DNA from: Mustelus asterias
Lineage: Eukaryota
Assembly: GCF_964213995.1 (NCBI RefSeq)
Contig: NW_027590119.1
Coordinates: 248,001 to 312,000 of the forward strand
Reading direction: 5' to 3'
Length of the DNA: 64,000 nucleotides
Position numbers and translations under genes: made by a program
The notes under the pieces: model-generated
Told to the model about the DNA's origin: nothing
Seen by the model: only the letters and a program-made list of their open reading frames with translations
Database searches by the model: none
In this document: positions 1 through 64,000 of the stretch, piece by piece
Layout: each line of letters begins with the position of its first letter
How positions within the stretch are numbered: position 1 is the first letter of the stretch

Positions 1-84
1 GTGAAGAGAGACCGTACACGTGTTCTGTGTGGACAAGGATTCAACTGATCATCAAACCTGGAGAGCCACAAGGACACCCGCATC

Positions 85-1611
85 ATGGAGAAACTGTGGA
101 AATGTGACAATTGTGGACAAGGATTCATGTTGCCCTGTGATTTGGAAATTCATCAACGCAGTCACACTCGGGAGAGACCCTTCACTTGCTCAGTGTGTGG
201 GAAGGGATACATTAAGTTCTCCCACCTGCTGAGTCACAATCTCACTCACACCAATGAGAGACCCTTTAAATGCTCTGACTGTGGGAGCGGATTCAAAAGC
301 TCTGGAGAACTGGTGTCCCACCAGCGCATTCACAGTGAGGAGAGACTGTTCAGCTGCTCTCACTGCACAATGAAATTTAAATGGTCATCCACACTGCGGA
401 GACATCAGCGAGTTCACACCGGGGAGAGACCGTTCAGCTGCTCCATGTGTGGGAAGGGATTCTCTCGGTCCTCCGAACTGCGGGCACACCAACGAATTCA
501 CACTGGGGAGAGACCATTCACCTGCAATGTGTGTGGGAAGGGATTCTTTCGGTCATCCGCCCTGCTGACGCACAAAGTCACTCACACCAATGAGAGACCC
601 TTTAAATGCTCTGACTGTGAGAGTTGCTTCAAAAGTTCTCGGGATCTGATGTCCCACCAGCGCATTCACACTGAGGACAGACCGTTCAGCTGCTCTCACT
701 GCACAAAGAGATTTAGATCATCATCAAACCTGCGGAACCACCAGCGAGTTCACTCCGGGGAGAGACCATTCACTTGCTCTGACTGTGGGAAGGGATTCAC
801 GCAGTTATCCGCCCTGCTGACACACCAGCGAGTTCACACCGGAGAGAGGCCATTCACCTGCTCTGTGTGTGGGAAGGGATTCACTAATTTACCCAACCTG
901 CTGAGTCACAAAGTCACTCACACCAGTGAGAGGCCCTTTAAATGCTCGGACTGTGGGAGTGAATTCAAAATTTCTGGGGAACTGGTGTCCCACCAGCGCA
1001 TTCACACTGAGGACAGACCGTTCAGCTGCTCTCTCTGCACAAAGAGGTTTAAGAGGTCATCCACACTGCAGAGACACCAGCGAGTTCACACCAGGGAGAG
1101 ACCGTTCATCTGCTCTGTGTGTGGGAAGGGATTCAGTCAGTCATTCACCCTGCTGACACACCAGCGTCTTCACACCGAGGAGAGACCATTTACCTGCACC
1201 GAGTGTGGGAAGGGATTCACTCAGTCATCCACCCTGCTGACTCACCAGCAAGTTCACAGCGGGGAGAGACCATTCACCTGCACCGAGTGTGGGGACAGAT
1301 TCACTCGGTTATCCACCCTGCAGAGACACAAAGTCACTCACTCCCAGGAAAGACCCTTTAAATGCTCTGACTGTGGGAGTGGCTTCAAAATTGCTCAGCA
1401 TCTGATGGACCACCAGCGCATTCACACTGGGGAGAGACCGTTCAGCTGCTCTCACTGCACAAAGAGGTTTGGAAGGGCATGCACACTGAGGAGACACCAG
1501 CGGGTTCACACTGGGAGAGACCATTCACCTGCTCTGTGTGTGCGGAAGGATTCACTCGATACCCCAGCTGCTGATGCACAATGTCCCTCACACCCAGGAG
1601 AGACCCTTTAA
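85..1611 (+). CDS. Tandem C2H2 zinc-finger protein (17 fingers; 3' end frameshifted, relic fingers to ~1745); 5' part of exon lies outside the window
   Basis: CxxC-x12-HxxxH units with TGERPF linkers; frame slips at ~1513 ([10 protein letters not shown]) and degenerate fingers continue in other frames. Confidence 0.88.
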   Translation: MEKLWKCDNCGQGFMLPCDLEIHQRSHTRERPFTCSVCGKGYIKFSHLLSHNLTHTNERPFKCSDCGSGFKSSGELVSHQRIHSEERLFSCSHCTMKFKWSSTLRRHQRVHTGERPFSCSMCGKGFSRSSELRAHQRIHTGERPFTCNVCGKGFFRSSALLTHKVTHTNERPFKCSDCESCFKSSRDLMSHQRIHTEDRPFSCSHCTKRFRSSSNLRNHQRVHSGERPFTCSDCGKGFTQLSALLTHQRVHTGERPFTCSVCGKGFTNLPNLLSHKVTHTSERPFKCSDCGSEFKISGELVSHQRIHTEDRPFSCSLCTKRFKRSSTLQRHQRVHTRERPFICSVCGKGFSQSFTLLTHQRLHTEERPFTCTECGKGFTQSSTLLTHQQVHSGERPFTCTECGDRFTRLSTLQRHKVTHSQERPFKCSDCGSGFKIAQHLMDHQRIHTGERPFSCSHCTKRFGRACTLRRHQRVHTGRDHSPALCVRKDSLDTPAADAQCPSHPGETL

Positions 1612-11663: not shown

Positions 11664-12704
11664 TCATGAGACCGGCCAGTCCAGCAGAAAGAAACCCTCT
11701 GACCCTCCCCATTGACCAACTGTGAGAATGAACAAAATGCAGTCCTGGATGTAACTGAGAGCAGAAACAATAACAGCAGAATCCAACCCCTGTGCACTTG
11801 TTGGTGCCTCAGCAGCCGTGATGAAATTCTGAACACTTTTTATACACTGAGCAGGTGGACAGTTTCTCCCCAGTGTAACTTCACTGATGTGGTTGGATAA
11901 CTGAGTGAATTCCTTCCCACACTCAGAGCAGGTGAATGGTCTCTCCCCAGTGTGAACTCGCTGGTGTCTCTGCAGGTGGGATGACTGAGTGAATCTCTTC
12001 CCGCACTGAGAGCAGGTGAACGGCCTCTCTCCAGTGTGAACTCGCTGGTGTTTCTGCTGGGTGGATAACTGACTGAAACCCTTCCCACACTGAGAGCAGG
12101 TAAATGGTCTCTCCCCAGTGTGAACTCGCTGGTGTCTCCGCAGGACGGATGACCGAGTGAATCCCTTCCCACACTGAGAGCAGGTGAATGGCCTCTCCCC
12201 AGTGTGAACTCGCTGGTGTGTCCGCAGGTCGGATGAACGAGTAAATCCCTTCCCACACTGAGAGCAGGTGAATGGCCTCTCCCCGGTGTGAATGTGCTGA
12301 TGTGTCCGCAGGTCGGATGACCGAGTGAATCTCTTCCCACAACGAGAGCAGATGAATGGCCTCTCCCCAGTGTGAACTCGCTGGTGTATCTGCAGGTTGG
12401 AAAACTGACTGAACCCCTTCCCACACCGAGAGCAGATAAACAGCCTCTCCCCAGTGTGAATTCGCTGGTGTCTCTGCAAAGTGGATAACACAGTGAATCC
12501 CTTTCCACACTGAGAGCAGGTGAACGGCCTCTCTCCGGTGTGAACTCGCTTGTGTGACTGCAAGCTGGGCAACAGAGCAAATCCCTCCCCACACTGAGAG
12601 CAGATGAATGGCCGCTCCCCAGTGTGGCTGCGCCGATGAGCATCCAGCAGAGAGGGGGCTCTGTATCTCTTTCCACAGTCTGCACATTTCCATGGTTTCT
12701 CCAT
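11664..12704 (-). CDS. Tandem C2H2 zinc-finger protein (9 complete fingers; deletion/frameshift in finger 10 runs into former 3' UTR)
   Basis: ATG MEKPWKC at 12704, CSQC...[11 protein letters not shown] repeats, frame break ~11890. Confidence 0.85.
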
Positions 12705-12949
12705 GGTGCAGGTGTCCTTGCCTCTCCCTTGGGTGGCCAATCAGTTGACGCCTTGTCCACACACAGAACGCGGGGACAGTCTCTCCCTGCTGTGAATGGT
12801 GATATTTATTCAGGCTGTGTAACTGGTGAAAGCTCTTTAGTCAGTGCTCTGGAACACTCTCACTCGGGTGTGGCAGGGTGTTGCTGCTTTTCCACTCACT
12901 GATGGCCGAAGTCTTTTCAAATCCAAGTGGAAGCTTTAATCTGAAGCTC

Positions 12950-16415: not shown

Positions 16416-16498
16416 AACAAAGAACGAAGAACAAAGAACAGTACAACACAGGAAACAGGCCCTTCGGCCCTCCAAGCCTGTGCCGCTCCTTGGTCTAA

Positions 16499-19431
16499 CT
16501 AGACCAATCGTTTGAATCCCTCCATTCCCAGGCTGCTCTTGTGACTATCCAGGTAAGTCTTAAACGATGTCAGCGTGCCTGCCTCCACCACCCTACTTGG
16601 CAGCGCATTCCAGGCCCCCACCACCCTCTGTGTAAAAAACATCCCTCTAATATCTGAGTTATACTTCGCCCCTCTCACCTTGAGCCCGTGACCCCTCGTG
16701 ATCGTCACCTCCGACCTGGGAAAAAGCTTCCCACTGTTCACCCTATCTATCCCCTCCATAATCTTGTACACCTCTATTAGATCTCCCCTCATTCTCCGTC
16801 TTTCCAGGGAGAACAAGCCCAGTTTACCCAATCTCTCCTCATAGCTAAGACCCTCCATACCAGGCAACATCCTGGTAAACCTTCTCTGCACTCTCTCTAA
16901 CGCCTCCACGTCCTTCTGGTAGTGCGGCGACCAGAACTGGACGCAGTACTCCAAATGTGGCCGAACCAGCGTTCTATACAGCTGCATCATCAGACTCCAG
17001 CTTTTATACTCTATACTCCGTCCTATAAAGGCAAGCATACCATATGCCTTCTTCACCACCTTCTCCACCTGTGTTGCCACCTTCAAGGATTTGTGGACTT
17101 GCACACTTAGGTCCCTCTGTGTTTCTATACTCCTGATGACTCTGCCATTTATTGTATAACTCCTCCCTACATTATTTCTTCCAAAATGCATCACTTCGCA
17201 TTTATCCGGATTAAACTCCATCTGCCACCTCTCCGCCCAATTTTCCAGCCTATCTATATCTTGCTGTATTGCCCGACAATGCTCTTCGCTATCCGCAAGT
17301 CCAGCCATCTTCGTGTCATCCGCAAACTTGCTGATTACACCAGTTACACCTTCTTCCAAATCATTTATATATATCACAAATAGCAGAGGTCCCAGTACAG
17401 AGCCCTGCGGAACACCACTGGTCACAGACCTCCAGCCGGAAAAAGACCCTTCGACCACTACCCTCTGTCTCCTATGGCCAAGCCAGTTCTCCACCCATCT
17501 AGCCACTTCTCCTTGTATCCCATGAGCCTTAACCTTCTTAACCAACCTGCCATGTGGGACTTTGTCAAATGCCTTACTGAAATCCATATAGACGACATCC
17601 ACGGCCCTTCCTTCATCAACCGTTTTTGTCACTTCCTCAAAAAACTCCACCAAATTTGTACGGCACGACCTCCCTCTTACAAAACCATGCTGTCTGTCAC
17701 TAATGAGATTGTTCCATTCTAAATGCACATACATCCTGTCTCTAAGAATCCTCTCCAACAACTTCCCTACCACGGACGTCAAGCTCACCGGCCTATAATT
17801 TCCTGGGTTATCCCTGCTACCCTTCTTAAACAATGGGACCACATTCGCTATCCTCCAATCCTCAGGGACCTCACCCGTGTCCAAAGAAGCGACAAAGATT
17901 TCCGTCAGAGGCCCAGCAATTTCACCTCTCGTCTCCCTGAGCAGTCGAGGATAGATGCCATCAGGCCCTGGGGCTTTGTCAGTTTTAATGTTCCCTAAAA
18001 AACCTAACACTTCCTCTCTTGTAATGGAGATTTTCTCTAACGGGTCAACACCTCCCTCCGAGACACTCCCGGTTAACACGCCCCTCTCCTTCGTGAATAC
18101 CGATGCAAAGTATTCATTTAGGATCTCCCCTATTCCCTTGGGTTCTAAGCATAATTCCCCTCCTTTGTCCCTGAGAGGTCCAATTTTCTCCCTGACAACT
18201 CTTTTGTTCCTAACGTATGAATAGAATGCCTTAGGATTCTCCTTAATCCTGCCTGCCAAGAACATCTTGTGACCTCTTTTTGCCCTTCTAACTCCCCGTT
18301 TGAGATCTTTCCTACTCTCTCTGTATTCCTCCAGAGCTCCATCTGTTTTCAATTGCCTGGACTTAACGTACGCCTCCCTTTTCATTTTAATCAGATCCTC
18401 AATTTCCCTGGTTATCCACGGCTCTCGAATCCTACCTTTCCTATCTTTCCTTTTTACAGGCACATGCCTATCCTGCAGCCTTATCAATAGTTCCTTAAAA
18501 GACTCCCACATGCCAGACGCGGACTTACCCTCGAACATCCTCTCCCAATCAACATCCACCAATTCCTGCCTAATCCGGCTATAGTCAGCCTTCCCCCAAT
18601 TTAGCACCCTGCCCATAGGACAGCACTCATCCTTGTCCATGACTATCCTAAAGTTAACAGAGTTGTGGTCACTATTTGCCACATGTTCCCCTACCGAAAC
18701 TTTGACGACCTGACCGGGCTCATTTCCCAGAACTAGGTCCAGTATAGCCCCCTCTCTAGTCGGGCTATCTACATACTGTTCCAAAGAACCTTCCAGTACG
18801 CATTTTACAAATTCCTCCCCATCCGGTCCCCCAGCTCTCAGCACTTTCCAGTCTGTGCCAGGGAAATTAAAGTCCCCCACTACAACAACCCTATGTTTTC
18901 TGCACCTATCCAGAATCTCCTGACATATCCTCTCCTCCACTTCCCGTGGGCTGTTGGGTGGTCTGTAGTACACCCCCAGCATAGTGATGCACCCTTCCTG
19001 TTTCTGAGTTCCACCCACAGCGACTCAGTACATGACCCCTCTAAGTTGTCTACCCTCTGCACCGCGGTAATATGCTCCTTAACTAATATCGCTACTCCCC
19101 CACCTTTTTTAGCCCCTCCTCTGTCTCGCCTAAAACACTTATACCCCAGAATATTCAGCTGCCAGTCCTGTCCTTCTTTTAACCAAGTTTCCGTCACCGC
19201 AACCACATCCAAATTCCGCACAAGCATTAAGGCCCTAAGTTCGTCTGTTTTACCCGTTACACTCCTCGCATTGAAGCAGATGCACTCCAGACCTCCAGGC
19301 CCAGTCAGGTCCTCCTCCTCCAGAGTGCTCGTCTTCTTAGCTAGCCTTGCCCTGGCCCCCAGCTCGACCCCAGCCTCAGTATTTACTGACCTCCTGTTTT
19401 GTTCCCCACCCCCCTGCCACACTAGTTTAAA
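16499..19431 (-). pseudogene. CR1 ORF2 (APE endonuclease + RT) with one 1-nt frameshift at ~18989
   Basis: [32 protein letters not shown]; break between NRKGA and ITMLGVYYRPP. Confidence 0.92.
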
Positions 19432-20450
19432 TCCTGCCGAAACACTCTAGCAAAACTCCCAGCCAGGATATTTGCTCCCTTCCAGTTAAGGTGTAACCCA
19501 TCCTTTCTGTACAGTTGCCATCCTGACTTGAAGATTTCCCAGTTATCTATGAATTTAAAACCCTCCCTCTTGCACCAGTCCTTTAGCCACGCGTTCAACT
19601 GTAGAATCTCCCTGTTCCGAGCCTCACTTGCACTAGGCACCGGGAGCAGTCCAGATATTGCTACCCTGGAGGTCTTACTTTTTAGCCTAGCACCCAACTC
19701 CCTGAATTTCTCTCGTATGACCCCCCTGCTCTTCCTACCTACATCATTTCCCCCAATGTGTACAATCACATCCGTTTGACTACCTTCCTTTTTAAATATG
19801 CTTCCTACCCTCTCGGAGACATCCAGTACCCCGGCACCAGGGAGGCAGACTACCATCCTGGATTCTCGTTCAGTCCCACAGAAGCGCCTGTCCGTGCCTC
19901 TAACCATTGCGTCCCCCACAACTATCGCTCTCCTAAACCCCTTCTTTCCCTTCCGGACCCCTGAGCCTGTCTCCGTGGAGGCGATCTGGTCCTCGTGGCT
20001 TACCCCTGGAGGGTCATCCCCCTCCACAGAATCCAAAACAAGATACCTATTTTGGAGGGGGACAACCACAGGGGATCCCTCCACAGACTGCTCACTCCCT
20101 TCCCTTCTCCCATCTGTTGCCGATTCCTTTCTTTTATGGGAGACTGCCACTGGGGTACTTTCTGGCACATCACCCTTCTGACTATTACCCCTCCTAACTG
20201 TGACCCACGTGTCTTCCTTCCGAGACCCTGGTGTCACTACCTGACTATAACTTTTATCTATTACTCTCTCATTTTCCCTAACTAAACTGAGTTCATCGAG
20301 CCTCAGCTCCAGCTCCCTTACACGATCCTTCAGGAGATGCAGTTCCACACATGTGGCACAGATATGGACTTCCGGGAGGCAAGTAGTCTCCAGGAACTCC
20401 CACATCTCACACCGAATGCAGTATACTGGCCTCCCACTCATACCAGCCAT
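19422..20450 (-). CDS. CR1 ORF1p (CxxC-CxxC/leucine zipper + SGNH esterase-like domain)
   Basis: CIRC..CATC, LKDRVRELE zipper, GDAMVR, GGND and DGLHLN SGNH blocks; open frame. Confidence 0.92.
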   Translation of the reverse strand: MAGMSGRPVYCIRCEMWEFLETTCLPEVHICATCVELHLLKDRVRELELRLDELSLVRENERVIDKSYSQVVTPGSRKEDTWVTVRRGNSQKGDVPESTPVAVSHKRKESATDGRREGSEQSVEGSPVVVPLQNRYLVLDSVEGDDPPGVSHEDQIASTETGSGVRKGKKGFRRAIVVGDAMVRGTDRRFCGTERESRMVVCLPGAGVLDVSERVGSIFKKEGSQTDVIVHIGGNDVGRKSRGVIREKFRELGARLKSKTSRVAISGLLPVPSASEARNREILQLNAWLKDWCKREGFKFIDNWEIFKSGWQLYRKDGLHLNWKGANILAGSFARVFRQDLN

Positions 20451-21404
20451 GTCCTTTTTAGTTTTGTGGATAAAACAAAAAGGGGGTGTAACCGAAGAAA
20501 AACAAACAAACAACCTTCCTCGCTGAAGCCCTGTGAGCCAAAGCCCTTTTAGCTCTCACTCTGTCCCCTGCTCACTCCGCTGCCCGCTAACGACGCTGCC
20601 CGCTCAAAGGTGCGGCCTACTTTTAAACCCTCCAAAACCTTCCCAGGCTGCTGCTGGGCCTATTTCCTGTTTAGAAAAAAAACCTCCGATTTTTTTCACT
20701 AATTTAACTGAAAAAATAATTAAATAAATTAGTGCACACACAAGCTCCCTTACCCTCAGCCTGCTCCTGTGGAACAATGAGACAGTCATTCTGTCTCTCT
20801 CTCGGTTTAACTCTCTTTCCTTCGAACTCAATGTCGGTATATTTCTTTAGGTAGATCTTTCCCCGAATTAAGGTGAAAAATGAAGCAAATAATTTGACGC
20901 CTGTCGAATACACAAGTACTGAGTGCCCAGTGCAAGAGGATAATTAATAGATACCGTTTTAAGTACACCGGGAAAATGTAATCACCCAACTCAGAATTGA
21001 GATGCGGTTCGACTGGGAATACATTGATTTCAGTCAGTCAATATTATTAACCCAGCAACTTCAACATGTGACAACTCTGAGTCTGCCTTTGATATTTGAT
21101 CACTTTTGAAAGGTGTGGTCTGTCACAGTTAACTGATCTGGAGCATTTAAAATACAGATTGATGACCTTGTTCTCCTGAGAGATCTGCGGGTTTGTGTGA
21201 ATGGGATCGGGGAATGATTGGACTTGATCTGATAGTAATATGAGTAAAAATATCTCAAATTTACCAACAGTGACAATTATTGACCTCAGTGAGGGAAAAC
21301 ACTCAGGTGGGGCTGTATTGTCACGTTCACTATGGGTAACATTTCTCTGATTTTTGATCCCATGTGTTGTCCTGACAGTGAACCATTGATTATCGACCTG
21401 TGCC

Positions 21405-21443
21405 AGTTTTTGTATGAGGCCCGCGGGAGCCTCATTCACTGTG
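21405..21443 (-). promoter_or_regulatory. V(D)J recombination signal sequence, 23-bp spacer
   Basis: Minus strand CACAGTG (21443-21437) + 23 nt + ACAAAAACT (21413-21405) directly after the YYCALR codons. Confidence 0.93.
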
Positions 21444-21753
21444 GGTCTGAGTGCACAGTAATACACGGCGTTGTCTGCCATCTTCAAATCTTTCATGGAC
21501 AAGTGAAAAGTGCTTTGTTTAAGGTTGAGATTCTCATTGAAGTGTTCAAAGCCGGGAGCCGTATCGGTAAACCCATAACTAGCGGCTCTGAGCAGATACT
21601 GAGGAGCTCGGTGTGGATACTGGCGATACCAGAACAGGTAATGTTGTGTAGCTGAACTCGATGCAAAGTAACTGCAGGGTATTGCTGAATCTTCACCCTC
21701 TGCTGCTTCACAACTGGTTCTGACTGGGACACTGAGTCACCGTTACTCATCTC
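21444..21753 (-). pseudogene. T-cell receptor alpha/delta-type V segment exon (1-nt frameshift in FR1)
   Basis: Reconstructed GDSVSQSEPVV/AAEGEDSAIPCSYF...YLFWYRQYPHRAPQYLL...STFHLSMKDLKMADNAVYYCALR; frameshift ~21708. Confidence 0.9.
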
Positions 21754-36766: not shown

Positions 36767-38072
36767 GGTTTTAGAAGGGGATGATTTGCAGTCAGGAAAC
36801 TCAAACCAAACATCAAATCCAGATCTGACTGAGTCGCCCAACTTATCGTTACCTGAATACCACTGAACCTTGAGCATGGAAGGAAAAAGCACCATTCACA
36901 ATGGGGCAAAACTGTACACGTGTTCTGTGTGTGGACAAGGATTCAGACAATCATCTGGCCTGTCAAGACACAAGTGCAGTCACACTGAGGAGAAACCGTG
37001 GAAATGTGGGGAAGGATTCAGAGACCTGTCTGAGCTGGAAATTCACCAATACAGTAACACTGGGGAGAGGCTGTTCACCTGCTCTGAGTGTGGGAGAGGA
37101 TTCACTCAGTCATCCACCCTGCTGACACACCAGCGAGTTCACACTGGAGAGAGGCCATTTATCTGCTCCGAGTGTGGAAAGGGATTCACTCAATCATCTA
37201 ACCTGCTGACACACCAGCGGGTTCACACTGGAGAGAGGCCATTCACCTGCTCTGAATGTGGGATGCGATTCACTCAGTCATTCAACCTGCTGAGACACCA
37301 GCGGATTCACAAGGGAGAGAGGCCATTCACCTGCTCCGAGTGTGGGAAGGGATTCACTCAGTCATCTACACTGCAGACACACCAGCGAGTTCACACAGAG
37401 GAAAGACCATTTAAATGTCCAGAATGTGGCAAGTGCTATAAAAGTTTAAAGGAAGTGATGTTCCATCAACGTGTTCACACTGAGGAGAGACCATTTAAAT
37501 GCCCAGACTGCGAGAAGTGTTATAGAGGTTCCAGAGAACTAATGTTCCATCAACGTGTTCACACTGATGAGAGACCGTTCAGGTGCTCTCACTGCGGGAC
37601 TGGGTTCAGGTGGTCATCTCAACTCACTGAACACCAGTGAATTCACACTGGGGAGCGGCCGTTCACTTGCACTGACTGTGGGAAGGGATTCACTCGGACA
37701 TCACACCTCATGGCACATCAGCAAGTTCACACCGATGAGAGACCGTTTAAATGTCCAGACTGCGGGAAGTGCTGTAAAAGTTCCAGCAATCTAGTGTCCC
37801 ATCAACGTGTTCACAGTGAGGAGAGACCTTTTAAATGTCCAGACTGCGGGAAATGCTATAAAAGCTGCAGTGATCTGATGTCTCATCAACGTGGTCACAC
37901 TGATGAGAGACCGTTCAAGTGCACTCACTGCGGGACTGGGTTCAGGCGACCATCCCAACTCACTGTCCACCAGCGAATTCACACTGGGGAGAGGCCGTTC
38001 ACCTGCTCCAAATGTGGAAAGGGATTCACTCAGAAATACAACCTGTTGAGCCATCAGCGAGTTGACAAGTGA
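36767..38072 (+). pseudogene. C2H2 zinc-finger exon with two in-frame TGA stops (36864, 37638); residual ORF from ATG 36876
   Basis: Acceptor TTTCACAG|G at 36766/7; ORFs 36870-37640 and 37710-38072 share one frame; ~13 fingers. Confidence 0.85.
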
Positions 38073-48187: not shown

Positions 48188-49460
48188 GATAGATTTGCAG
48201 AAGGTGAGGATTTACAGGCAGAAATTTCAAATCAAACAACACATCAAGACCTGACAGAGTTATTCATTTGATCAGGACCTGAATATCATTGGCCTTTGAA
48301 TCTAAAAGGAGAAATCTTTTTCTGTTCTGTCTGCTTCAGAATTATTTTTTTAACATAAATGTAACTGAAAAATCACTGAGACACAGATACACCCGAGTGA
48401 GTGTGTTCCAGTGTACTGTGTGGGAAGAGATTTAACCAGTTACACAGCCTGAAAATACATCGCAGCATTTACAGCGGGGAGAGACTGTACCCGTGTTCTG
48501 TGTGAGATTTAACTCATTATTTAACCTGGAGAGTCACAAGGACACCCGCACCAGGGGGAAACTGTGTAAATGTGGGGACTGTGGGAGGCGATTCAGGATC
48601 CCATCACGGCTGGAATCTCATCGACACATTCACACTGGGGAGCGGCCATTCACCTGCTCTGTGTGCGGGAAGGGATTCACTCAGTTATCCAGCCTGCAGA
48701 GTCACAATCTCACTCACACCAATGAGGGATCCTTTAAATGCTCTGACTGTAGGATTGGCTTCAAAACCTCTGGAGAACCAGTGTCCCACCAGGTGTCACA
48801 CTGAGGAGAGACCGTTCAGCTGCTCTCACTGCACAAAGAGGTTTAAAAGCTCATCCAATCTGCAGAGACACCAACGAGTTCACACTGGGGAGAGACCATT
48901 CACCTGTTCTGACTGTGGGAAGGGATTCACTCAGTTCTCCCACCTGCTGAGTCATAATCTCACTCACACCAATGAGAGACCCTTTAAATGTTCTGACTGT
49001 GGGAGCAGATTCAAAAGCTCTGGAGAACTGGTGTCCCACCAGCCAGTTCACACTGGGGAGAGACCATTCACCTGCTCTGTGTGTGGAAAGGGATTCACTC
49101 AGTCATCCAGCCTGCTCAGACACAATCTCGCTCACACCAATCTGAGGCCTTTCAAATGCTCTGACTGTGGAAGTGGCTTCAAAAGCTCTGGAGAGCTGAT
49201 GTCCCACCAGCGCATTCACACTGAGGAGAGACCGTTCAGCTGCTCTCACTGCTCAAAGAGATTTAGAATATCTTCAGCACTGCTGAAACACCAGTGAGTT
49301 CACAGTGGGGAGCTGCTCTCAGTGTGGGAAGGGATTCACTGAGTCATCCAACCCATGGGTACTTCAGTGAGTTCACACTGGGCAGAGGCTGGTCACCTGC
49401 TCTGACTGTGATTCACTCAGTCAGCAAACTTGGTGAAACACCAGTGAGTTCACAAGTGAT
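48188..49460 (+). pseudogene. C2H2 zinc-finger pseudogene (paralog of 85-1611)
   Basis: [17 protein letters not shown] finger type; frameshift ~48795, TGA at 49295; shares downstream sequence with 2401-2480. Confidence 0.87.
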
Positions 49461-55425: not shown

Positions 55426-56892
55426 AGCTAACAAGTCCTTGATTAAAATAAGATACAAGATCCTTCATTCCTCTTCATTATAAGTTAATCTTTTTTAAGC
55501 TAACTTCCAAAGCCTGATTTATAGGCAACATCTCGTCTTTGTTGATTTAAAATCCTCAACACGTTACCACCTGCAAAATGTTTGTTCTTTATCTGGGGTT
55601 GAGATGACAACATGATAAAATCCTCACAGTTCTTCCAAATTCCTCCAGGCCATGCTTAAAATTTCCACGTTTCACTGGTTCCCATAAATCCTCAATCAAA
55701 AACTAAAATAGACACATGAGTTTCCAGGTGATTTAAAAACAAATGAACTGTCTGCTGAAAGGGTTAACTTTTCTACAGAACCTAAAGGGGTCGGGAGTGA
55801 GCAGAAAAAACTTGGCCCACAATTACATCACTTCACATATGATGGGGGTTTTTCTCAGAGGCTCAGTATTGAGCTGAACCCAGTTAATACAAAGATTTGC
55901 AAAAGACAGTATACTGGTTAAAGACATTATTTATTGACCAACACGCACTGGGAGAAAGGCAGCTGGGAGTCCAACTCCTTTCTAAAGTTACAATACATTG
56001 GCCGTGTAGTTATACTATTTTGAAAGTTCATTTCACCCACCCACTCTGTCATCCCAACTGGATGCTCCAATCATGTTCATGCACAATATTTACCTTGGCC
56101 AATAACATCCTATCTTCTGGCAGAATGGGAATTCATTGGTCTGTCGAATCTGACAGTTCATGCCCACTGTTACTTTGCAACTTTCACTTACGTCGGTCTA
56201 TAGGGTTCAAAGGTTGCTTTCTAACTGACTCTCAGCAACTTCTATTACATAGGTTATAGGGTTCAAACGTTCCTTTCCACTGTCTGCTGAGCCATCCCTT
56301 ATCAGTAAAAAATGAATAATTCTATTCATTCTAGTTTCTGGGAAGCGTTTACTTTTATAACTCATACTGAACTCATTGTTCCACAGGAGCAGGCTGAGGG
56401 TAAGGGAGCTTGTTTGTGCACTAATTTATTTATTTATTTTTCAGTTAAATTTGTGAAAAAAATCGGAGGTTTTTTTCAAAACAGGAAATAGGCCCAGCAG
56501 CAGCCTGGGAAGGTTTTGGAGGGTTTAAAAGTGCTTACCTTGGAGGTTTCAGCCTCATTGTTCCACAGGAGCAGGCTGAGGGTAAGGGAGCTTGTTTGTG
56601 CACTAATTTATTTATTTATTTTTCAGTTAAATTTGTGAAAAAAATCGGAGGTTTTTTTCAAAACAGGAAATAGGCCCAGCAGCAGCCTGGGAAGGTTTTG
56701 GAGGGTTTAAAAGTAGGCCGCACCTTTGAGCGGGCAGCGTCGTTAGCGGGCAGTGGAGTGAGCAGGGGACAGAGTGAGAGCTGAAGGGCTTTGGCTCAAA
56801 ACGGGCTTTGGCGAGAACAGGCAGAGGCGAGAGGAGGTTATTTTTTCTTTTTCAGAAAGTTTGTTCCTGTATTTCCCCAGAGTAAAAAAAAT

Positions 56893-57834
56893 ATGCCAGG
56901 CAAGATGTTGGAATGCTCCTCTTGCAGGATGTGGGAGATCAGGGAGACCTCCGGTATCCCTGACGACAGCACCTGCAAAAGATGTAGTCAGCTGCAGCTG
57001 CTAGCAAAGCGTGTTAGGGAACTGGAGCAGGAGCTTGATGACCTCCATCTAATTCGAGAGAATGAGACGTATATAGACAATAGATATAGGGAGATAGTTA
57101 CACCTAAACAGCAGAGCACAGGAAATTGGGTTACTGTAAGGAGAGGAAATGGCAGTGTGAAAGGACAGGCAGAGCAGGGTTCCCCTGTGGACATACCCCT
57201 CCACAACAGGTATACTGAATTGGATACTGTTGTGGCAGATGCTTTACCTGGGACAAGCTGCGACAGCCGGAACTCTGATACTGAGTCTGGTGCTACAGCG
57301 CAAAAGGGTGGGATGAAGAAGAGGAGAGCAGTAGTGATAGGGGACTCGATGGTCAGAGGTACAGACCGGAGGTTCTGTGGTCGGGACAGAGACTCCCGCA
57401 TGGTTTGTTGCCTCCCAGGTGCCAAGGTCAGCGATGTCTCTGATCGCGTGCACAGCGTTCTAAAGAGGGAAGGTGATCAGCCAGATGTCCTGGTACATGT
57501 CAGTACCAATGACGTGGGAAGGAAGAGTGAGGAAGTCCTAAAGAGTGAGTACAAAGAGCTTGGAAGGAAGTTAAAAAGCAGGACCCCGAGGGTAGTAATC
57601 TCAGGATTGCTACCTGAGCCACATGCCAGTGAGGGCAGGAGTAGGATGCTTGGGTGGATAAACACGTGGCTGAGGAACTGGTGCAGGGGGCAGGGTTTCC
57701 AATTCTTGGATCATTGGGACCTCTTCTGGGGTAGGTGGGACCTGTACAAGAGAGACGGGTTACACCTAAACTACAAGGGGACCAATATACTTGCAGGGAG
57801 ATTTGCTAGTGTTATTGGGGAGCGTTTAAACTAG
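56893..57834 (+). CDS. CR1 ORF1p (CxxC-CxxC/zipper + SGNH esterase-like)
   Basis: CSSC..CKRC, GDSMVR, STND, DGLHLN; open frame. Confidence 0.92.
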   Translation: MPGKMLECSSCRMWEIRETSGIPDDSTCKRCSQLQLLAKRVRELEQELDDLHLIRENETYIDNRYREIVTPKQQSTGNWVTVRRGNGSVKGQAEQGSPVDIPLHNRYTELDTVVADALPGTSCDSRNSDTESGATAQKGGMKKRRAVVIGDSMVRGTDRRFCGRDRDSRMVCCLPGAKVSDVSDRVHSVLKREGDQPDVLVHVSTNDVGRKSEEVLKSEYKELGRKLKSRTPRVVISGLLPEPHASEGRSRMLGWINTWLRNWCRGQGFQFLDHWDLFWGRWDLYKRDGLHLNYKGTNILAGRFASVIGERLN

Positions 57835-60763
57835 ATTTGCAGGGGGGTGGGAACCAGAGTGCCAGAGCAGATAGTGGAGCAGGGGTAAAAAGACAGGTTA
57901 GTTCAAGCAAAATCACAAATGGAAGGGTAGAGTGTGGTGGAAATAATTTTTTGAGGTGTGTCTATTTCAATGCCAGGAGTATTGTGGGGAAGGCAGATGA
58001 GCTGAAGGCGTGGATAGACACATGGAAATATGACATTATAGCCATTAGTGAAACTTGGCTACAGGAGGGGCAGGACTGGCAGCTCAATGTTCCAGGGTTC
58101 CAATGTTTCAGGCGGGATAGAGGCAGAGGGATAAAAGGTGGGGGGGGGGGGTGGCATTGTTGGTCAGGGGAAATGTTACAGCGGTACTCAGACAGGATAG
58201 ATTAGGGAGCTTGTCTACAGAGGCCCTATGGGTGGAGCTGAGAAACAAGAAAGGTATGACCACATTAATGGGCTTGTATTATAGACCACCCAATAGTCAG
58301 CGAGAATTGGAGGAGCAAATCAGCGGAGAGATAGCTGACAACTGCAAGAAACACAAAGTTGTGATCGTAGGGGATTTTAATTTTCCACATATAGATTGGG
58401 ACTCGCATACTGTTAAAGGTTTAGACGGGGTAGAGTTTGTAAAATGTGTTCAGGAGAATTTTCTACATCAGTATATAGAGGTGCCATCTAGAGAGGATGC
58501 GATATTGGATCTCCTATTGGGAAATGAGTTAGGGCAGGTGATGGATGTGAGTGTGAGGGAACACTTTGGATCCAGTGATCATAATGCCATTAGTTTCAAC
58601 CTGATCGTGGCTAAGGATAGATCTGGTCCTCGGGTTGAAGTTCTGAACTGGAAAAAGGCCAAATTTGATGAAATGAGAAGGGATCTGGGAAGTGTGGATT
58701 GGCACAGGCTGTTCTCTGGTAAGGATGTAAATGGAAAGTGGGAGGCCTTCAAAGGAGAAATTTTGAGAGTGCAGAGTTTGTATGTTCCTGTCAGGATTAA
58801 AGGCAAAGTAAATCGGAATAAGGAACCTTGGTTCTCGAGGGAGATTGTAACACTGATTAAGAGGAAGAGAGAGTTGTATGAAATGTACAGGCAGCAAGGA
58901 ACACATCAGATGCTCGAGGAGTCTAAAAAGTGCAAGAAGCTACTTAAGAGGGATATCAGGAGGGCTAAAAGAAGACATGAGGTTGCTTTGGCAGACAGAG
59001 TGAAGGAAAATCCAAAGAGCTTCTATAGGTATGTTAGGAGCAAAAGGATAGTGAGGGATTAAATTGGTCCTCTTGAAGACCAGAGTGGTACACTGTGTAT
59101 GGAACCAAAAGAGATGGGGGAGATACTAAATGGTTTTTTTGCATCCGTATTTACTGAGGAAACGGGCATGGAGTCTACGGAAATAGGGCAAACTGGTAGG
59201 GAGGCCATGGAACCTTTACAGATTAAAGGGGAGGAGGTGCTCGCTGTCTTGAGGCAAATCAGAGTGGATAAATCCCCAGGACCGGACAGGGTATTCCCAC
59301 GGACCTTGAGGGAAGCTAGTGTTGAACTTGCAGGGACCCTGGCAGACATATTTAAAATGTCAGTATTCACGGGGAAGGTGCCGGATGATTGGAGGGTGGC
59401 TCATGTTGTTCCGTTGTTTAAAAAAGGTTCCAAAAGAAATCCGGGAAATTATCGGCCAGTAAGTTTGACGTCGGTGGTGGGCAAGTTATTGGAAGGTGTG
59501 ATAAGGGATAGGATCTACAAATATTTGGATAGACAGGGACCTATTAGGGAGAGTCAACATGGCTTTGTGCGTGGTAGGTCATGTTTGACCAATCTATTAG
59601 AGTTTTTCGAGGAGGTTACCAGGAAAGTGGATGAAGGGAAGGCGGTGGATGTTGTCTACCTGGATTTCAGCAAGGCCTTTGACAAGGTCCCTCATGGGAG
59701 GTTAGTTAGGAAGGTTCAGTCGCTAGGTATACATGGGGAGGTAGTAAATTGGATAAGACACTGGCTCAATGGAAGAAGCCAGAGAGTGGTTGTGGAGGAT
59801 TGCTTCTCTGAGTGGAGGCCTGTGACTAGTGGTGTGCCGCAGGGATCGGTGTTGGGTCCATTGTTGTTTGTCATCTATATCAATGATCTGGATGATAATG
59901 TGGTAAATTGGATCAGCAAGTTTGCTGATGATACAAAGATTGGAGGTGTAGTGGACAGTGAGGAAGGTTTTCAAAGCTTGCAGAGGGATTTGGACCAACT
60001 AGAAAAATGGGCTGAAAAATGGCAAATGGAATTTAACGCAGACAAGTGTGAGATATTGCACTTTGGAAGGACAAACCAAAGAAGAACGTACTCGGTAAAT
60101 GGTAGGACTCTGAAGAGTGCAGTTGAACAGAGGGATCTGGGAATACAGGTACAGAATTCCCTAAAAGTGACGTCACAGGTGGATAGGGTCGTAAAGAGTG
60201 CCTTTGGTACATTGGCCTTTATAAATCGGAGTATCGAGTATAAAAGTTGGAGTGTTATGGTAAGGTTATATAAGGCATTGGTGAGGCCGAATTTGGAGTA
60301 TTGTGTACAGTTTTGGTCACCTAGTTACAGGAAGGATGTAAATAAGATTGAAAGAGTGCAGAGAAGGTTCACAAGGATGTTGCCGGGACTTGAGAAGCTG
60401 AGTTACAGAGAGAGATTGAATAGGTTGGGACTTTATTCCCTGGAGCGTAGAAGATTGAGGGGAGATTTGATAGAGGTGTATAAGATTTTGATGGGTATAG
60501 ATAGAGTGAATTCAAGCAGGCTTTTTCCGCTGAGGCTAGGGGAGAAAAAAACCAGAGGGCATGGGCATGGGTTAAGGGTGAAAGGAGAAAAGTTTAAAGG
60601 GAATATTGGGGGGGGGGGGGCTTCTTCACGCAGAGAGTGGTGGGAGTGTGGAATGAGCTGCCGGATAAATGGTAAACTTTTAACATTTAAGAAAAACTTG
60701 GACGGATTCATGGATGAGAGGGGTGTGGAGGGATATGGTCCAAGTGCAGGTCAGTGGGACTAG
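57825..60763 (+). pseudogene. CR1 ORF2 (APE + RT); breaks at G-runs ~58145 and ~60615 and a TAA at 59060
   Basis: [33 protein letters not shown]. Confidence 0.92.
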
Positions 60764-62009
60764 GCATAAAATGGTTCGGCACAGACAAGAAGGACCAAAA
60801 GGCCTGTTTCTGAGCTGTAATTTTCTATGGTTCTATGGTTCTATGATACAAACTGTGCTCTGTGGCTTCACTGTTCTGACAGAATGTGGCCTGTCTCACT
60901 CAGCTTTTATCCCATTATGCTTTAGGGCAGTCTGCAGTTTGGCCAAGGTATACATTTTTGTACAAAAAGTACATATTTAAATCTGAAATACATATTTAAA
61001 TTCTCTACCAGTGGTTATATGTGTCTCTATGCAGACAGTACCTTTGTATAATATAAATAAGGCACGTTGTAGTCCTTATTCTACGTTAGTCTAAGTCAGC
61101 CCACCCTGTTTCAATAGCCTTTATTAGTTTTTAATCTCAAGGTATTCTGAACTCTTCTAACAAAATAACTTTAAAAAACTTAAAGTTTATAATTAGCCTC
61201 AAGTAAGCTTACATTGACACTGCAATGAAGTTACTGTGAAAAATCCCCTCTCTAACAACAAAAGAAACTTGATTTTAAACTTCATCTATTAATGTTTTTG
61301 TTATATTCCTCAACCTATTTTAATTTGATCAGTTTTTGTGAGGGATGGGTAATTTCTATTCTTTATAAACTGGTTCACTCATTTTGTTAATTCTACATGG
61401 GCTCAGAGAATCAGAACACAGACTCTATCATCCATTTCCTTTTTCTCCTTTTGCCACCACTCTCTCTGTTTTGCGGGAGGGTCGTGGGGATTCCAATCAG
61501 ACCAAATCATTGATTATAAAAGTAAAACAAAAACAGAAAGTGCTGGAAAATCCCAGCAGATCTGACAGCATCTGTAGGGGGAGAATAGAGCCAACGTTTC
61601 AAGTCTGGATTATCCTTCATGAGAGCTCCTATGAAGTGTCACCCAGACTCAAAATGTTGGCTCTATCATTTTATCGATAGGTTTCTTGTTCTTAGTTTCC
61701 AAAAGACAGGCAAGAAATTTGTCTGGTGCTCACTCGAGCTCTGATTTGTCACTGGCCATGCTTGGGTTGGACTATAAGCATTAGAATCCACTCTTAGAGG
61801 TCCACTTTTCAGTCCAGTGCTACTTGGTGTACTGTCACTTCACCGACTACCGGGTCACAAGACCTTCACAGTTCTTATCACAAATCTATGATAAAATAAT
61901 TTAAGCAATGCCTGAGAACGCTTCTTAATCTACTTACCACCGTTTGTTGATTGATCAGACCCCCTTTTTACAGATTTGGATATCTCAGCCGCTGAATACC
62001 AGCTGGTTA

Positions 62010-63124: not shown

Positions 63125-63799
63125 TCACTCGTGAACTTGATGGTGTCTCAACAGTTGGGCTGAAACTCTGAATCCCTTCCCACACTGAGAGCAGGTGAAT
63201 GATTTCTCCCCAGTGTGAACTCGCTGGTGTGTCTGCAGGCTGGATAACTGAGTGAATCCCTTCCCACATTGAGAGCAGGTGAATGGTCTCTCCCCAGTCT
63301 GAACTCGCTGGTGTCTCTGCAGGTGGGATAACCAAGTGAATCCCTCCCCATACTGAGAGCAGGTGAACGGCCTCTTCCCAGTGTGAACTCGCTGGTGTGA
63401 CTGCAGGCTGGATGACTGAGTGAATCCCTTCCCACACTGAGAGCAGGTGAATGGCCTCTCCCCAGTGTGATCCCGCTTGTGTGCCCGCAGGTTGGATGAA
63501 CAAGCGAATCCCTTCCCACACTGAGAGCAGCTGAAGGGCCTCTCCCCAGTGTGAACTCGCTGGTGCCTCCGCAGGGTGAATAAATGACTGAATCCCTCCC
63601 CACACTGAGAACACGTGAACGGTCTCTCCCCAGTGTGAACTTGCTGGTGTCTCTGCAGGCTGGATGACTGAGTGAATCCCTCCCCACACTGAGAGCAGAT
63701 GAATGGTCTCTCCCCAGTGTGGCTGCGTCGATGAGCTTCCAGCTCTGATGGGTAACTGTATCTCTTCCCACAGTCCCCACATTTCCATGGTTTCTCCAT
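63125..63799 (-). CDS. Tandem C2H2 zinc-finger protein (8 fingers, one degenerate), open frame
   Basis: MEKPWKC start to HQVHE stop; finger 6 has CSQY/HQRVQ; upstream exon part runs off the window. Confidence 0.88.
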   Translation of the reverse strand: MEKPWKCGDCGKRYSYPSELEAHRRSHTGERPFICSQCGEGFTQSSSLQRHQQVHTGERPFTCSQCGEGFSHLFTLRRHQRVHTGERPFSCSQCGKGFACSSNLRAHKRDHTGERPFTCSQCGKGFTQSSSLQSHQRVHTGKRPFTCSQYGEGFTWLSHLQRHQRVQTGERPFTCSQCGKGFTQLSSLQTHQRVHTGEKSFTCSQCGKGFRVSAQLLRHHQVHE

Positions 63800-64000
63800 G
63801 GTGCGGGTGTCCTTGCCGCTCTCTTGGGTGGACAATCAGTTGAAGCCTCGAACACACTCACAACACGAGTACAGTCTCTCCCTGCTGTGAATGATGTGAT
63901 ATTTATTCAGGCTGTGTAACTGGTTGAAACTCTTTAGTCCGTGCGCTGGAAGACTCTCACTCGAGTGTGGCAGTGTGTTGGTACTTTTCCAGTCATACTG

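What the first reader, a model, noticed from the sequence alone, without database searches (positions are those of the whole stretch)
57800..57900. Candidate programmed -1 ribosomal frameshift joining CR1 ORF1 to ORF2 (U_UUA_AAC slippery site)
Seen: ORF1 ends CGT TTA AAC TAG, which places the heptamer T TTA AAC (57825-57831) in X_XXY_YYZ phase immediately before the stop. The -1 frame reads TTT AAA CTA GAT TTG CAG GGG.. (FKLDLQGGGNQ) straight into the endonuclease motif CVYFNARS with no AUG before it, and a G-tract CAGGGGGGTGGG follows ~9 nt downstream. Established: UUUAAAC is the slippery site used by coronaviruses, whereas L1 ORF2 is made by termination/re-initiation. Inference: these LINEs may express RT as an ORF1-ORF2 fusion, gag-pol style. 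I cannot tell from the window whether this has already been described for CR1.
Basis: partly seen in the sequence, partly recalled or inferred. Interest (0 to 1): 0.85.

Follow-up and report, generated by a model that had tools for sequence, protein, structure and literature searches.

The report
Slippery frameshift site in CR1 LINEs
A very common jumping gene of vertebrates (the CR1 LINE) ends its first gene on the same seven-letter slippery sequence in shark-type and bird-type copies, and its second gene continues one base back, usually with no start codon, so the copying enzyme is likely made when ribosomes slip, as in retroviruses.

Summary
Confirmed. T_TTA_AAC lies at 57825-57831, in phase, directly before the ORF1 stop of an esterase-type CR1 LINE in a shark-type genome; ORF2 runs in the -1 frame. 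A divergent CR1 in the window has the same site. Among junctions picked without using the heptamer, 87 of 103 carry it exactly. The terminal Leu is TTA in 98% (7-24% or absent at other Leu sites), and the base before it is T in 94%, although the amino acid there varies. All 11 multi-copy clusters keep the -1 frame across linkers of different length. 0 of 21 copies of this family have an AUG before the endonuclease motifs. A G-run starts 11 nt after the heptamer in 22 of 34 clusters; no hairpin is conserved. Best reading (0.75): programmed -1 frameshifting gives an ORF1-ORF2 fusion. Against: nothing was measured, there is no classical stimulator, and 13 of 37 clusters have an in-frame AUG near the stop. 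I did not find it described for CR1 in 10 searches, but key papers were not held. This scan noted the same site before, in other genomes and elsewhere in this one. The window's own copy is broken.

The parts
56372..56892 (+). 5' UTR region of CR1 element A, with two identical 161-nt copies 182 nt apart (5' boundary uncertain, no target duplication identified)
56893..57834 (+). ORF1, 313 aa: N-terminal CxxC..CxxC, SGNH/GDSL esterase, ends Leu-Asn-stop
   Evidence: PF13472, E 5.6e-11; profile matches 4C1B, E 4.7e-38
57825..57831 (+). Slippery-type heptamer T_TTA_AAC in ORF1 phase
57832..57834 (+). ORF1 stop directly after the heptamer (TAG 16, TAA 14, TGA 4, non-stop 3 of 37 clusters)
57842..57851 (+). 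Conserved G-run, G5-6-N-GGG, starting 11 nt after the heptamer; candidate stimulator (inferred)
57825..57956 (+). Open, AUG-free linker in the -1 frame between heptamer and endonuclease (44 codons here; length varies among families)
57957..60763 (+). ORF2 endonuclease and reverse transcriptase; broken in this copy (G12 run at 58140-58151, stop at 59060-59062, second long G-run near 60610)
60823..60846 (+). 3' tail of 8-nt tandem repeats, no poly(A)
19422..19431 (-). Same heptamer plus stop at the ORF1 end of a second, divergent CR1 (element B, about 16440-20555), followed by the same G-run at +11

Best explanation
This is the ORF1/ORF2 junction of an esterase-type CR1 LINE, where a fraction of ribosomes likely slips back one base on U_UUA_AAC and so would make ORF2 as an ORF1-linker-endonuclease-RT fusion, while the rest stop and release ORF1p. 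Shown: the heptamer, its phase, the adjacent stop, the -1 frame, the open AUG-free linker, the G-run at +11, and their conservation. Inferred: the slip itself. It could be tandem slippage of Leu- and Asn-tRNA from UUA-AAC to UUU-AAA, or slippage while the ribosome waits at the stop; both give the junction peptide ...Leu-Asn-Leu-Asp-Leu-Gln-Gly-Gly-Gly. Least certain: the pause. It is probably not a hairpin; I favour the unpaired G-run acting through a bound protein or a quadruplex, helped by the adjacent stop.
For: Heptamer exact in 87 of 103 unique junctions anchored on the esterase profile, not on the heptamer. Weighted over 50 clusters: TTA is 98% of Leu codons here, while the commonest codon at four upstream Leu sites reaches 24-68%. 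T at the X position is 94% against 0-72% at 42 upstream third positions, with six amino acids in that codon. -1 frame in 65 of 86 copies and the majority in 11 of 11 clusters with two or more located copies, over linkers of 102-276 nt. The -1 frame is closed 1-6 codons upstream in 60 of 87 copies. 0 of 21 family-A copies have Met before the NARS or ETW motifs, and 3 of 21 have a 977-codon open ORF2. 24 of 37 clusters lack an in-frame AUG near the junction. The same string lies at apparent junctions of 17 CR1-labelled consensus entries in a published library (PMC13343379 supplement, judged by eye). 48 of 49 Asn-ending ORF1 homologues can encode X_XXA_AAY, against 158 of 717 internal Asn triplets, and 8 of them end in QGN, SGN or SKN, which fit G_GGA_AAC or A_AAA_AAC (protein only). 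U_UUA_AAC, G_GGA_AAC and A_AAA_AAC are listed among the most shift-prone heptamers (PMC5009743, passage).
Against: No frameshift was measured. No conserved 3' stem-loop: mean z -0.08, 0 of 34 below -2, no inverted repeat of 10 nt or more in 57780-58000, no informative Rfam match; pseudoknots were not modelled. 13 of 37 clusters (7 of 12 metagenome ones) have an ORF2-frame AUG within 9 codons. Coding Leu-Asn-stop and Phe-Lys-Leu in two frames would force the same first six letters. The AAC bias is weak evidence, as one control Asn is 79% AAC. Clusters share ancestry and some singletons are decayed or mis-split copies, so 50 overstates the independent cases. 21 of 86 copies are not in the -1 frame, read here as decay after insertion. 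The protein profile was built mostly from Leu-Asn-ending sequences, which biases the 48 of 49, and the QGN clade has no DNA here.
Confidence: 0.75

Rival explanations
1. Termination and re-initiation: ribosomes stop at the ORF1 stop and restart in the -1 frame at a nearby AUG where there is one, or at a non-AUG codon (the CUA/CUG overlapping the stop). The heptamer would then reflect coding in two frames or a restart signal.
For: Described for SART1 and suggested for L1 (PMC2881922, PMC3708506, passages). In-frame AUG within 9 codons in 13 of 37 clusters, some as UAAUG overlaps. It also explains the fixed frame and open linker.
Against: 24 of 37 clusters, including the young family studied, have no such AUG. 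Letters upstream of the stop need not be slippery for a restart, and the -1 frame is closed 1-6 codons upstream in 60 of 87 copies. The ends of distant homologues fit other slippery heptamers.
Confidence: 0.15
2. Splicing: the AG just before the G-run is a 3' splice site that joins an upstream exon to ORF2 in frame.
For: AG directly before the G-run in 24 of 37 clusters. Donor-like and acceptor-like motifs in the 5' UTR (by eye). Long bird gene models join ORF1 pieces to the KGEG linker.
Against: 13 of 37 clusters lack that AG, including three multi-copy ones. There is no pyrimidine tract; the upstream sequence is purine-rich. It does not explain the heptamer.
Confidence: 0.05
3. No translational signal: Leu-Asn is needed by the esterase, and the codons are inherited unchanged or serve a DNA/RNA function such as an internal promoter.
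For: Clusters are related by descent; another ORF1 motif also shows synonymous constraint.
Against: Other Leu sites vary freely in the same set. Leu-Asn ends persist when the tail after the DGxH motif changes length. The frame link to ORF2 is left unexplained, as is how AUG-less ORF2 is made.
Confidence: 0.05

Closest known systems
Vertebrate canonical CR1 LINEs with esterase ORF1 (type IVB, CR1 subgroup 7; PMC4120745 and PMC13343379, passages)
   Same: Zinc-finger-like N-terminus plus esterase ORF1, APE-RT ORF2; junction strings match CR1-labelled consensus entries.
   Different: Neither main text contains the word 'frameshift' (0 occurrences); no ORF2 translation mechanism was seen in the passages read.
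-1 frameshift sites of coronaviruses and retroviruses at U_UUA_AAC (PMC5009743, passages)
   Same: Same heptamer, same phase, polymerase frame at -1.
   Different: No conserved downstream stem-loop; the stop is adjacent in 34 of 37 clusters; an unpaired G-run sits at +11; the host is a non-LTR element.
PRRSV protein-stimulated frameshift (CCCANCUCC 11 nt 3' of the shift site, bound by nsp1beta and PCBP; PMC5009743, passage)
   Same: Short low-complexity motif at the same distance and no need for RNA structure.
   Different: G-rich rather than C-rich; no binding protein is known; the analogy rests on spacing only.
Dictyostelium TRE5-A and TRE3-A (APE-type non-LTR elements; PMC5911963, figure legend)
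   Same: Non-LTR elements stated to need a -1 frameshift for ORF2.
   Different: Different host and ORF1; the original paper was not held, so the site and the evidence were not seen.
SART1 and L1 termination/re-initiation (PMC2881922, PMC3708506, passages)
   Same: Bicistronic LINE RNA with ORF2 start close to the ORF1 stop; a few CR1 clusters have UAAUG.
   Different: Most CR1 clusters here have no AUG near the stop, and all keep a slippery-type heptamer.

Membership tests
Esterase-type vertebrate CR1 LINE | ORF1 with SGNH esterase | tested here: met
   PF13472; profile matches 4C1B
Esterase-type vertebrate CR1 LINE | ORF2 with APE endonuclease and RT | tested here: met
   PF03372, PF14529, PF00078; in three pieces in this copy
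Esterase-type vertebrate CR1 LINE | 3' tail of 8-nt tandem repeats, no poly(A) (feature recalled) | tested here: met
   60823-60846
Esterase-type vertebrate CR1 LINE | RT phylogeny within the CR1 clade | not tested
   No tree built; the assignment rests on domains, tail and likeness by eye to CR1-labelled consensus entries
Canonical -1 programmed frameshift signal | X_XXY_YYZ heptamer in phase, conserved at synonymous sites | tested here: met
Canonical -1 programmed frameshift signal | Downstream ORF in the -1 frame, open from the heptamer | tested here: met
   65 of 86 copies, 11 of 11 multi-copy clusters
Canonical -1 programmed frameshift signal | 3' stem-loop 5-9 nt downstream | tested here: not met
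   0 of 34 with z below -2; no inverted repeat
Canonical -1 programmed frameshift signal | 3' pseudoknot or long-range pairing | tested here: inconclusive
   Pseudoknots not modelled; one recurrent long-range partner showed no covariation (p 0.66)
Canonical -1 programmed frameshift signal | Measured heptamer-dependent trans-frame product | not testable with these tools
   Needs reporter, ribosome profiling or mass spectrometry
Protein-stimulated frameshift (PRRSV type) | Conserved unstructured motif about 11 nt 3' of the shift site | tested here: met
   G-run starts at +11 in 22 of 34 clusters; G kept at third codon positions, 83-91%
Protein-stimulated frameshift (PRRSV type) | Trans-acting protein bound to the motif | not testable with these tools
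   none
Termination/re-initiation (SART1 type) | AUG overlapping or next to the ORF1 stop | tested here: not met
   Absent in this family (0 of 21 copies) and in 24 of 37 clusters; present in 13

The most novel reading that the evidence does not exclude
Esterase-type LINEs across vertebrates, and a distant clade that has swapped to G_GGA_AAC, make their reverse transcriptase as a Gag-Pol-like fusion by a -1 frameshift driven not by a hairpin but by an unpaired G-run at +11, read by a protein or folded as a quadruplex, together with the adjacent stop. This would be a natural G-run-stimulated frameshift, a use that a 2016 review calls not yet known, in the dominant transposon of birds, reptiles and sharks.
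Probability: 0.25. Interest if true: 0.9.

Novelty: new variant of a known kind. Interest (0 to 1): 0.75.

Why it matters
How bicistronic LINEs translate ORF2 is called unclear in the literature read (PMC3708506), and the worked-out cases are re-initiation. CR1 is the most abundant transposon family of birds, crocodilians, turtles and snakes (PMC4316615, abstract start). A frameshift would make its replicase an esterase-EN-RT fusion with a fixed ratio to ORF1p, as in retroviruses, and would change how CR1 ORF2 is annotated. The signal is about 27 nt long and can be tested directly in a reporter. The missing hairpin and the fixed G-run point to a possibly new type of stimulator.

Tried and rejected
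Downstream hairpin: not found. Quadruplex: predicted in 12 of 34 folds only, and G-richness is often no higher than upstream, so it is not supported as a general feature. Long-range pairing of the G-run with the VCCLPGA codons about 420 nt upstream: recurrent best partner, but own pairs are no more stable than shuffled ones (24 clusters, p 0.66). Protein-level test of the residue before Leu-Asn: 1 of 77 is E/Q/K/M/W, but five other nearby positions are as low (0-4%), so it is uninformative. Expression: no RNA holder listed; contigs of four runs only guessed to be RNA span the junction and show no joint at the AG, which is not used as evidence. Natural in-frame fusions: 18 longer proteins, all single-member gene models, and P0035/P0067 look like frame-altered single copies; no single-ORF family found, weak evidence. 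DNA for the QGN clade: none in viral contigs, genome contigs or this genome. Viral and genome contigs gave no CR1. Literature: 10 searches gave no paper that proposes frameshifting for CR1, judged from listings and passages. Not held: Kojima 2005, Kajikawa 1997, Alisch 2006, Marschalek 1992, Kapitonov and Jurka 2003; Haas 1997 and Repbase notes were not looked up. Supplement limits: cells of the PMC13343379 library are cut at 400 letters; one file of PMC4316615 could not be searched, and its four hits were Phe-Lys-Leu codons near the ORF2 end, not junctions; PMC8665684 and PMC4120745 supplements gave no junction.

Full report
Observation. The window holds a near full-length LINE on the plus strand. 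ORF1 (56893-57834, 313 aa) carries an SGNH esterase, and the frames behind it carry APE endonuclease and RT domains. ORF1 ends CGT TTA AAC TAG, so T_TTA_AAC lies at 57825-57831 in X_XXY_YYZ phase. The -1 frame is open from there through a 44-codon linker into CVYFNARS with no AUG. This copy's ORF2 is broken by a 12-G run at 58140-58151 and a stop at 59060-59062. A second, divergent CR1 on the minus strand has the same heptamer, stop and G-run at 19431-19422. The closest named ORF1 homologues are from rays and sharks, so the genome (3.68 Gb) is shark-type by inference.

Sample. Loci were chosen without using the heptamer: 30 first-listed and 40 hand-picked of the other 70 listed matches to the esterase DGLHLN codons, 30 by an endonuclease pattern, 30 by a looser esterase pattern, and 49 metagenome loci whose ORF1 resembles bird-type proteins. 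A profile that leaves out the last ORF1 residues gave 140 rows. Dropping 29 near-identical family-A loci and identical sequences left 103 (88 from this genome, 15 metagenome), in 50 clusters at 85% identity. Clusters share ancestry and some singletons are decayed or mis-split copies, so 50 overstates independence.

Conservation. 87 of 103 rows have the exact heptamer. With clusters weighted equally, the last-but-one codon is Leu in 92%, and TTA in 98% of those; at four upstream Leu sites the commonest codon reaches 24-68% and TTA is 24%, 7% or absent. The third base of the preceding codon is T in 94%, against 0-72% at 42 upstream codons, while that codon encodes Gly, Ala, Asp, Thr, Ser or Cys. 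AAC is 95% of Asn codons, but one control Asn is 79% AAC, so that test is weak. All three stops occur (TAG 16, TAA 14, TGA 4 of 37 clusters). Genome-wide, 21,314 sites match heptamer-stop-N7-GGGGG (control 42) out of 24,705 for any Leu-Asn codons (control 1,926); a pattern demanding a non-T at X gave 645 (control 366). These are copy counts. Fifteen more loci found with a distant query all belong to one known family; 13 show the exact heptamer plus stop.

Frame and start codons. Where the endonuclease was located, 65 of 86 copies are in the -1 frame (12 and 9 in the other two). All 11 clusters with two or more located copies have a -1 majority, and in-frame linkers run from 102 to 276 nt. Upstream, the -1 frame is closed within 1-6 codons in 60 of 87 copies. 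In the window's family, 1,182 first-look candidates were reported and the 40 best are 99-100% identical over 301 nt. None of 21 copies examined has Met before the NARS or ETW motifs; 3 have a 977-codon open ORF2, and the first Met is at codon 143 in 10 of the 11 copies open that far. So ORF2 translation must enter at the junction, without AUG in this family. Against a uniform picture, 13 of 37 clusters (7 of 12 metagenome) have an in-frame AUG within 9 codons, some as UAAUG.

Breadth. ORF1 homologues named from rays, sharks, a frog, a lizard and birds end in Leu-Asn; 77 of 123 retrieved proteins do, the rest being mostly partial or frame-altered. In the consensus library of PMC13343379, of 23 hits to heptamer plus stop, 17 lie by eye at ORF1/ORF2 junctions of CR1-labelled entries, 1 at that of a Crack-labelled entry, and 5 elsewhere. 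I read the labels as alligator, crocodile, bearded dragon, bullfrog, coelacanth, bowfin, elephant shark, sharks and rays. This search has no denominator, and only the first 400 letters of each entry are visible. Among 132 new distant representatives, 71 have the DGxH motif within 45 residues of the end, 49 of these end in Asn, and 48 of the 49 can encode X_XXA_AAY, against 158 of 717 internal Asn triplets. Six end in QGN, one in SGN and one in SKN, which fit G_GGA_AAC and A_AAA_AAC, two other highly shift-prone heptamers (PMC5009743). This is protein only, the profile favours Leu-Asn ends, and no DNA for that clade was obtained.

Stimulator. A run of four or more G starts 11 nt after the heptamer in 22 of 34 clusters, with G kept at third codon positions (83-91%), so the constraint is on the nucleotides. 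The downstream 70 nt fold no better than shuffles (mean z -0.08, 0 of 34 below -2); a quadruplex is predicted in 12 of 34. A recurrent long-range partner failed a covariation test. The distance equals that of the protein-bound C-rich motif of PRRSV, and natural quadruplex stimulators were not known in 2016 (PMC5009743); synthetic ones work (PMC3919603, abstract).

Mechanism. Most likely (0.75), a share of ribosomes slips -1 on U_UUA_AAC and makes an ORF1-linker-EN-RT fusion. The long, variable, open linker suits a fusion (inference). Re-initiation (0.15) explains the frame and the AUG-bearing lineages but not the slippery letters before the stop, unless both frames are coded there. Splicing (0.05) has an AG in 24 of 37 clusters but no pyrimidine tract. 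No step of translation was measured.

Relation to what is known. The element is an esterase-type CR1 by domains and tail; no RT tree was built. The signal works like a viral -1 site by inference, but fails the test for a 3' stem-loop, so I do not file it as a canonical one. A -1 frameshift is stated for Dictyostelium TRE5-A and TRE3-A, so it is not unheard of in non-LTR elements. Ten searches found no such proposal for CR1. Papers seen: passages of PMC5009743 (first 300,000 of 449,034 characters), PMC11835228, PMC5405496, PMC2881922, PMC3708506, PMC5911963, PMC4120745, PMC3905857, PMC13343379 and PMC8665684; supplement searches of PMC13343379, PMC4316615, PMC8665684 and PMC4120745; abstract of PMC3919603. 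The original chicken and turtle CR1 papers were not seen and may mention frameshifting. Earlier notes of this scan report the same site; they are not counted as support.

Verdict. Real, conserved and directly testable; new variant of a known kind; interest 0.75.

Noticed in passing
window about 57405-57425 (+), VCCLPGA codons of ORF1; same motif in other loci: Synonymous constraint: the Cys before Leu is TGC in all 22 clusters of this genome and all 31 metagenome clusters, and Leu is mostly CTC, unlike other Leu sites. Pairing with the G-run is not supported. Unexplained; shared ancestry may contribute.
   Followed up: partly
window 56372-56714 (+): Two identical 161-nt copies 182 nt apart in the 5' UTR of element A, with splice donor-like and acceptor-like motifs.
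   Followed up: no
proteins P0193, P0196, P0197, P0200, P0204, P0215, P0253, P0217: Distant esterase ORF1 clade ending QGN, SGN or SKN, compatible with other slippery heptamers; unnamed, no DNA obtained.
   Followed up: partly
L162, L163, L167, L176, L177, L193, L203; L032, L036, L133, L135, L147, L037: Clusters with an ORF2-frame AUG just after the ORF1 stop, some as UAAUG; frameshifting and re-initiation may coexist there.
   Followed up: partly
window 49-1611, 11664-12740, 36867-37640, 48506-49297, 63125-63835; 21047-21736 (-): Several C2H2 zinc-finger array frames and an immunoglobulin V-set frame among LINE fragments.
   Followed up: no
L222 (G000:C90) and window 60823 onward: This copy shares its 3' flank and the long G-run with a copy on another contig, suggesting a segmental duplicate or second haplotype.
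   Followed up: no
P0012, P0106: Shark-type CR1 ORF1 proteins labelled Pseudomonas aeruginosa and Proteus mirabilis in public sources, probably contamination.
   Followed up: no
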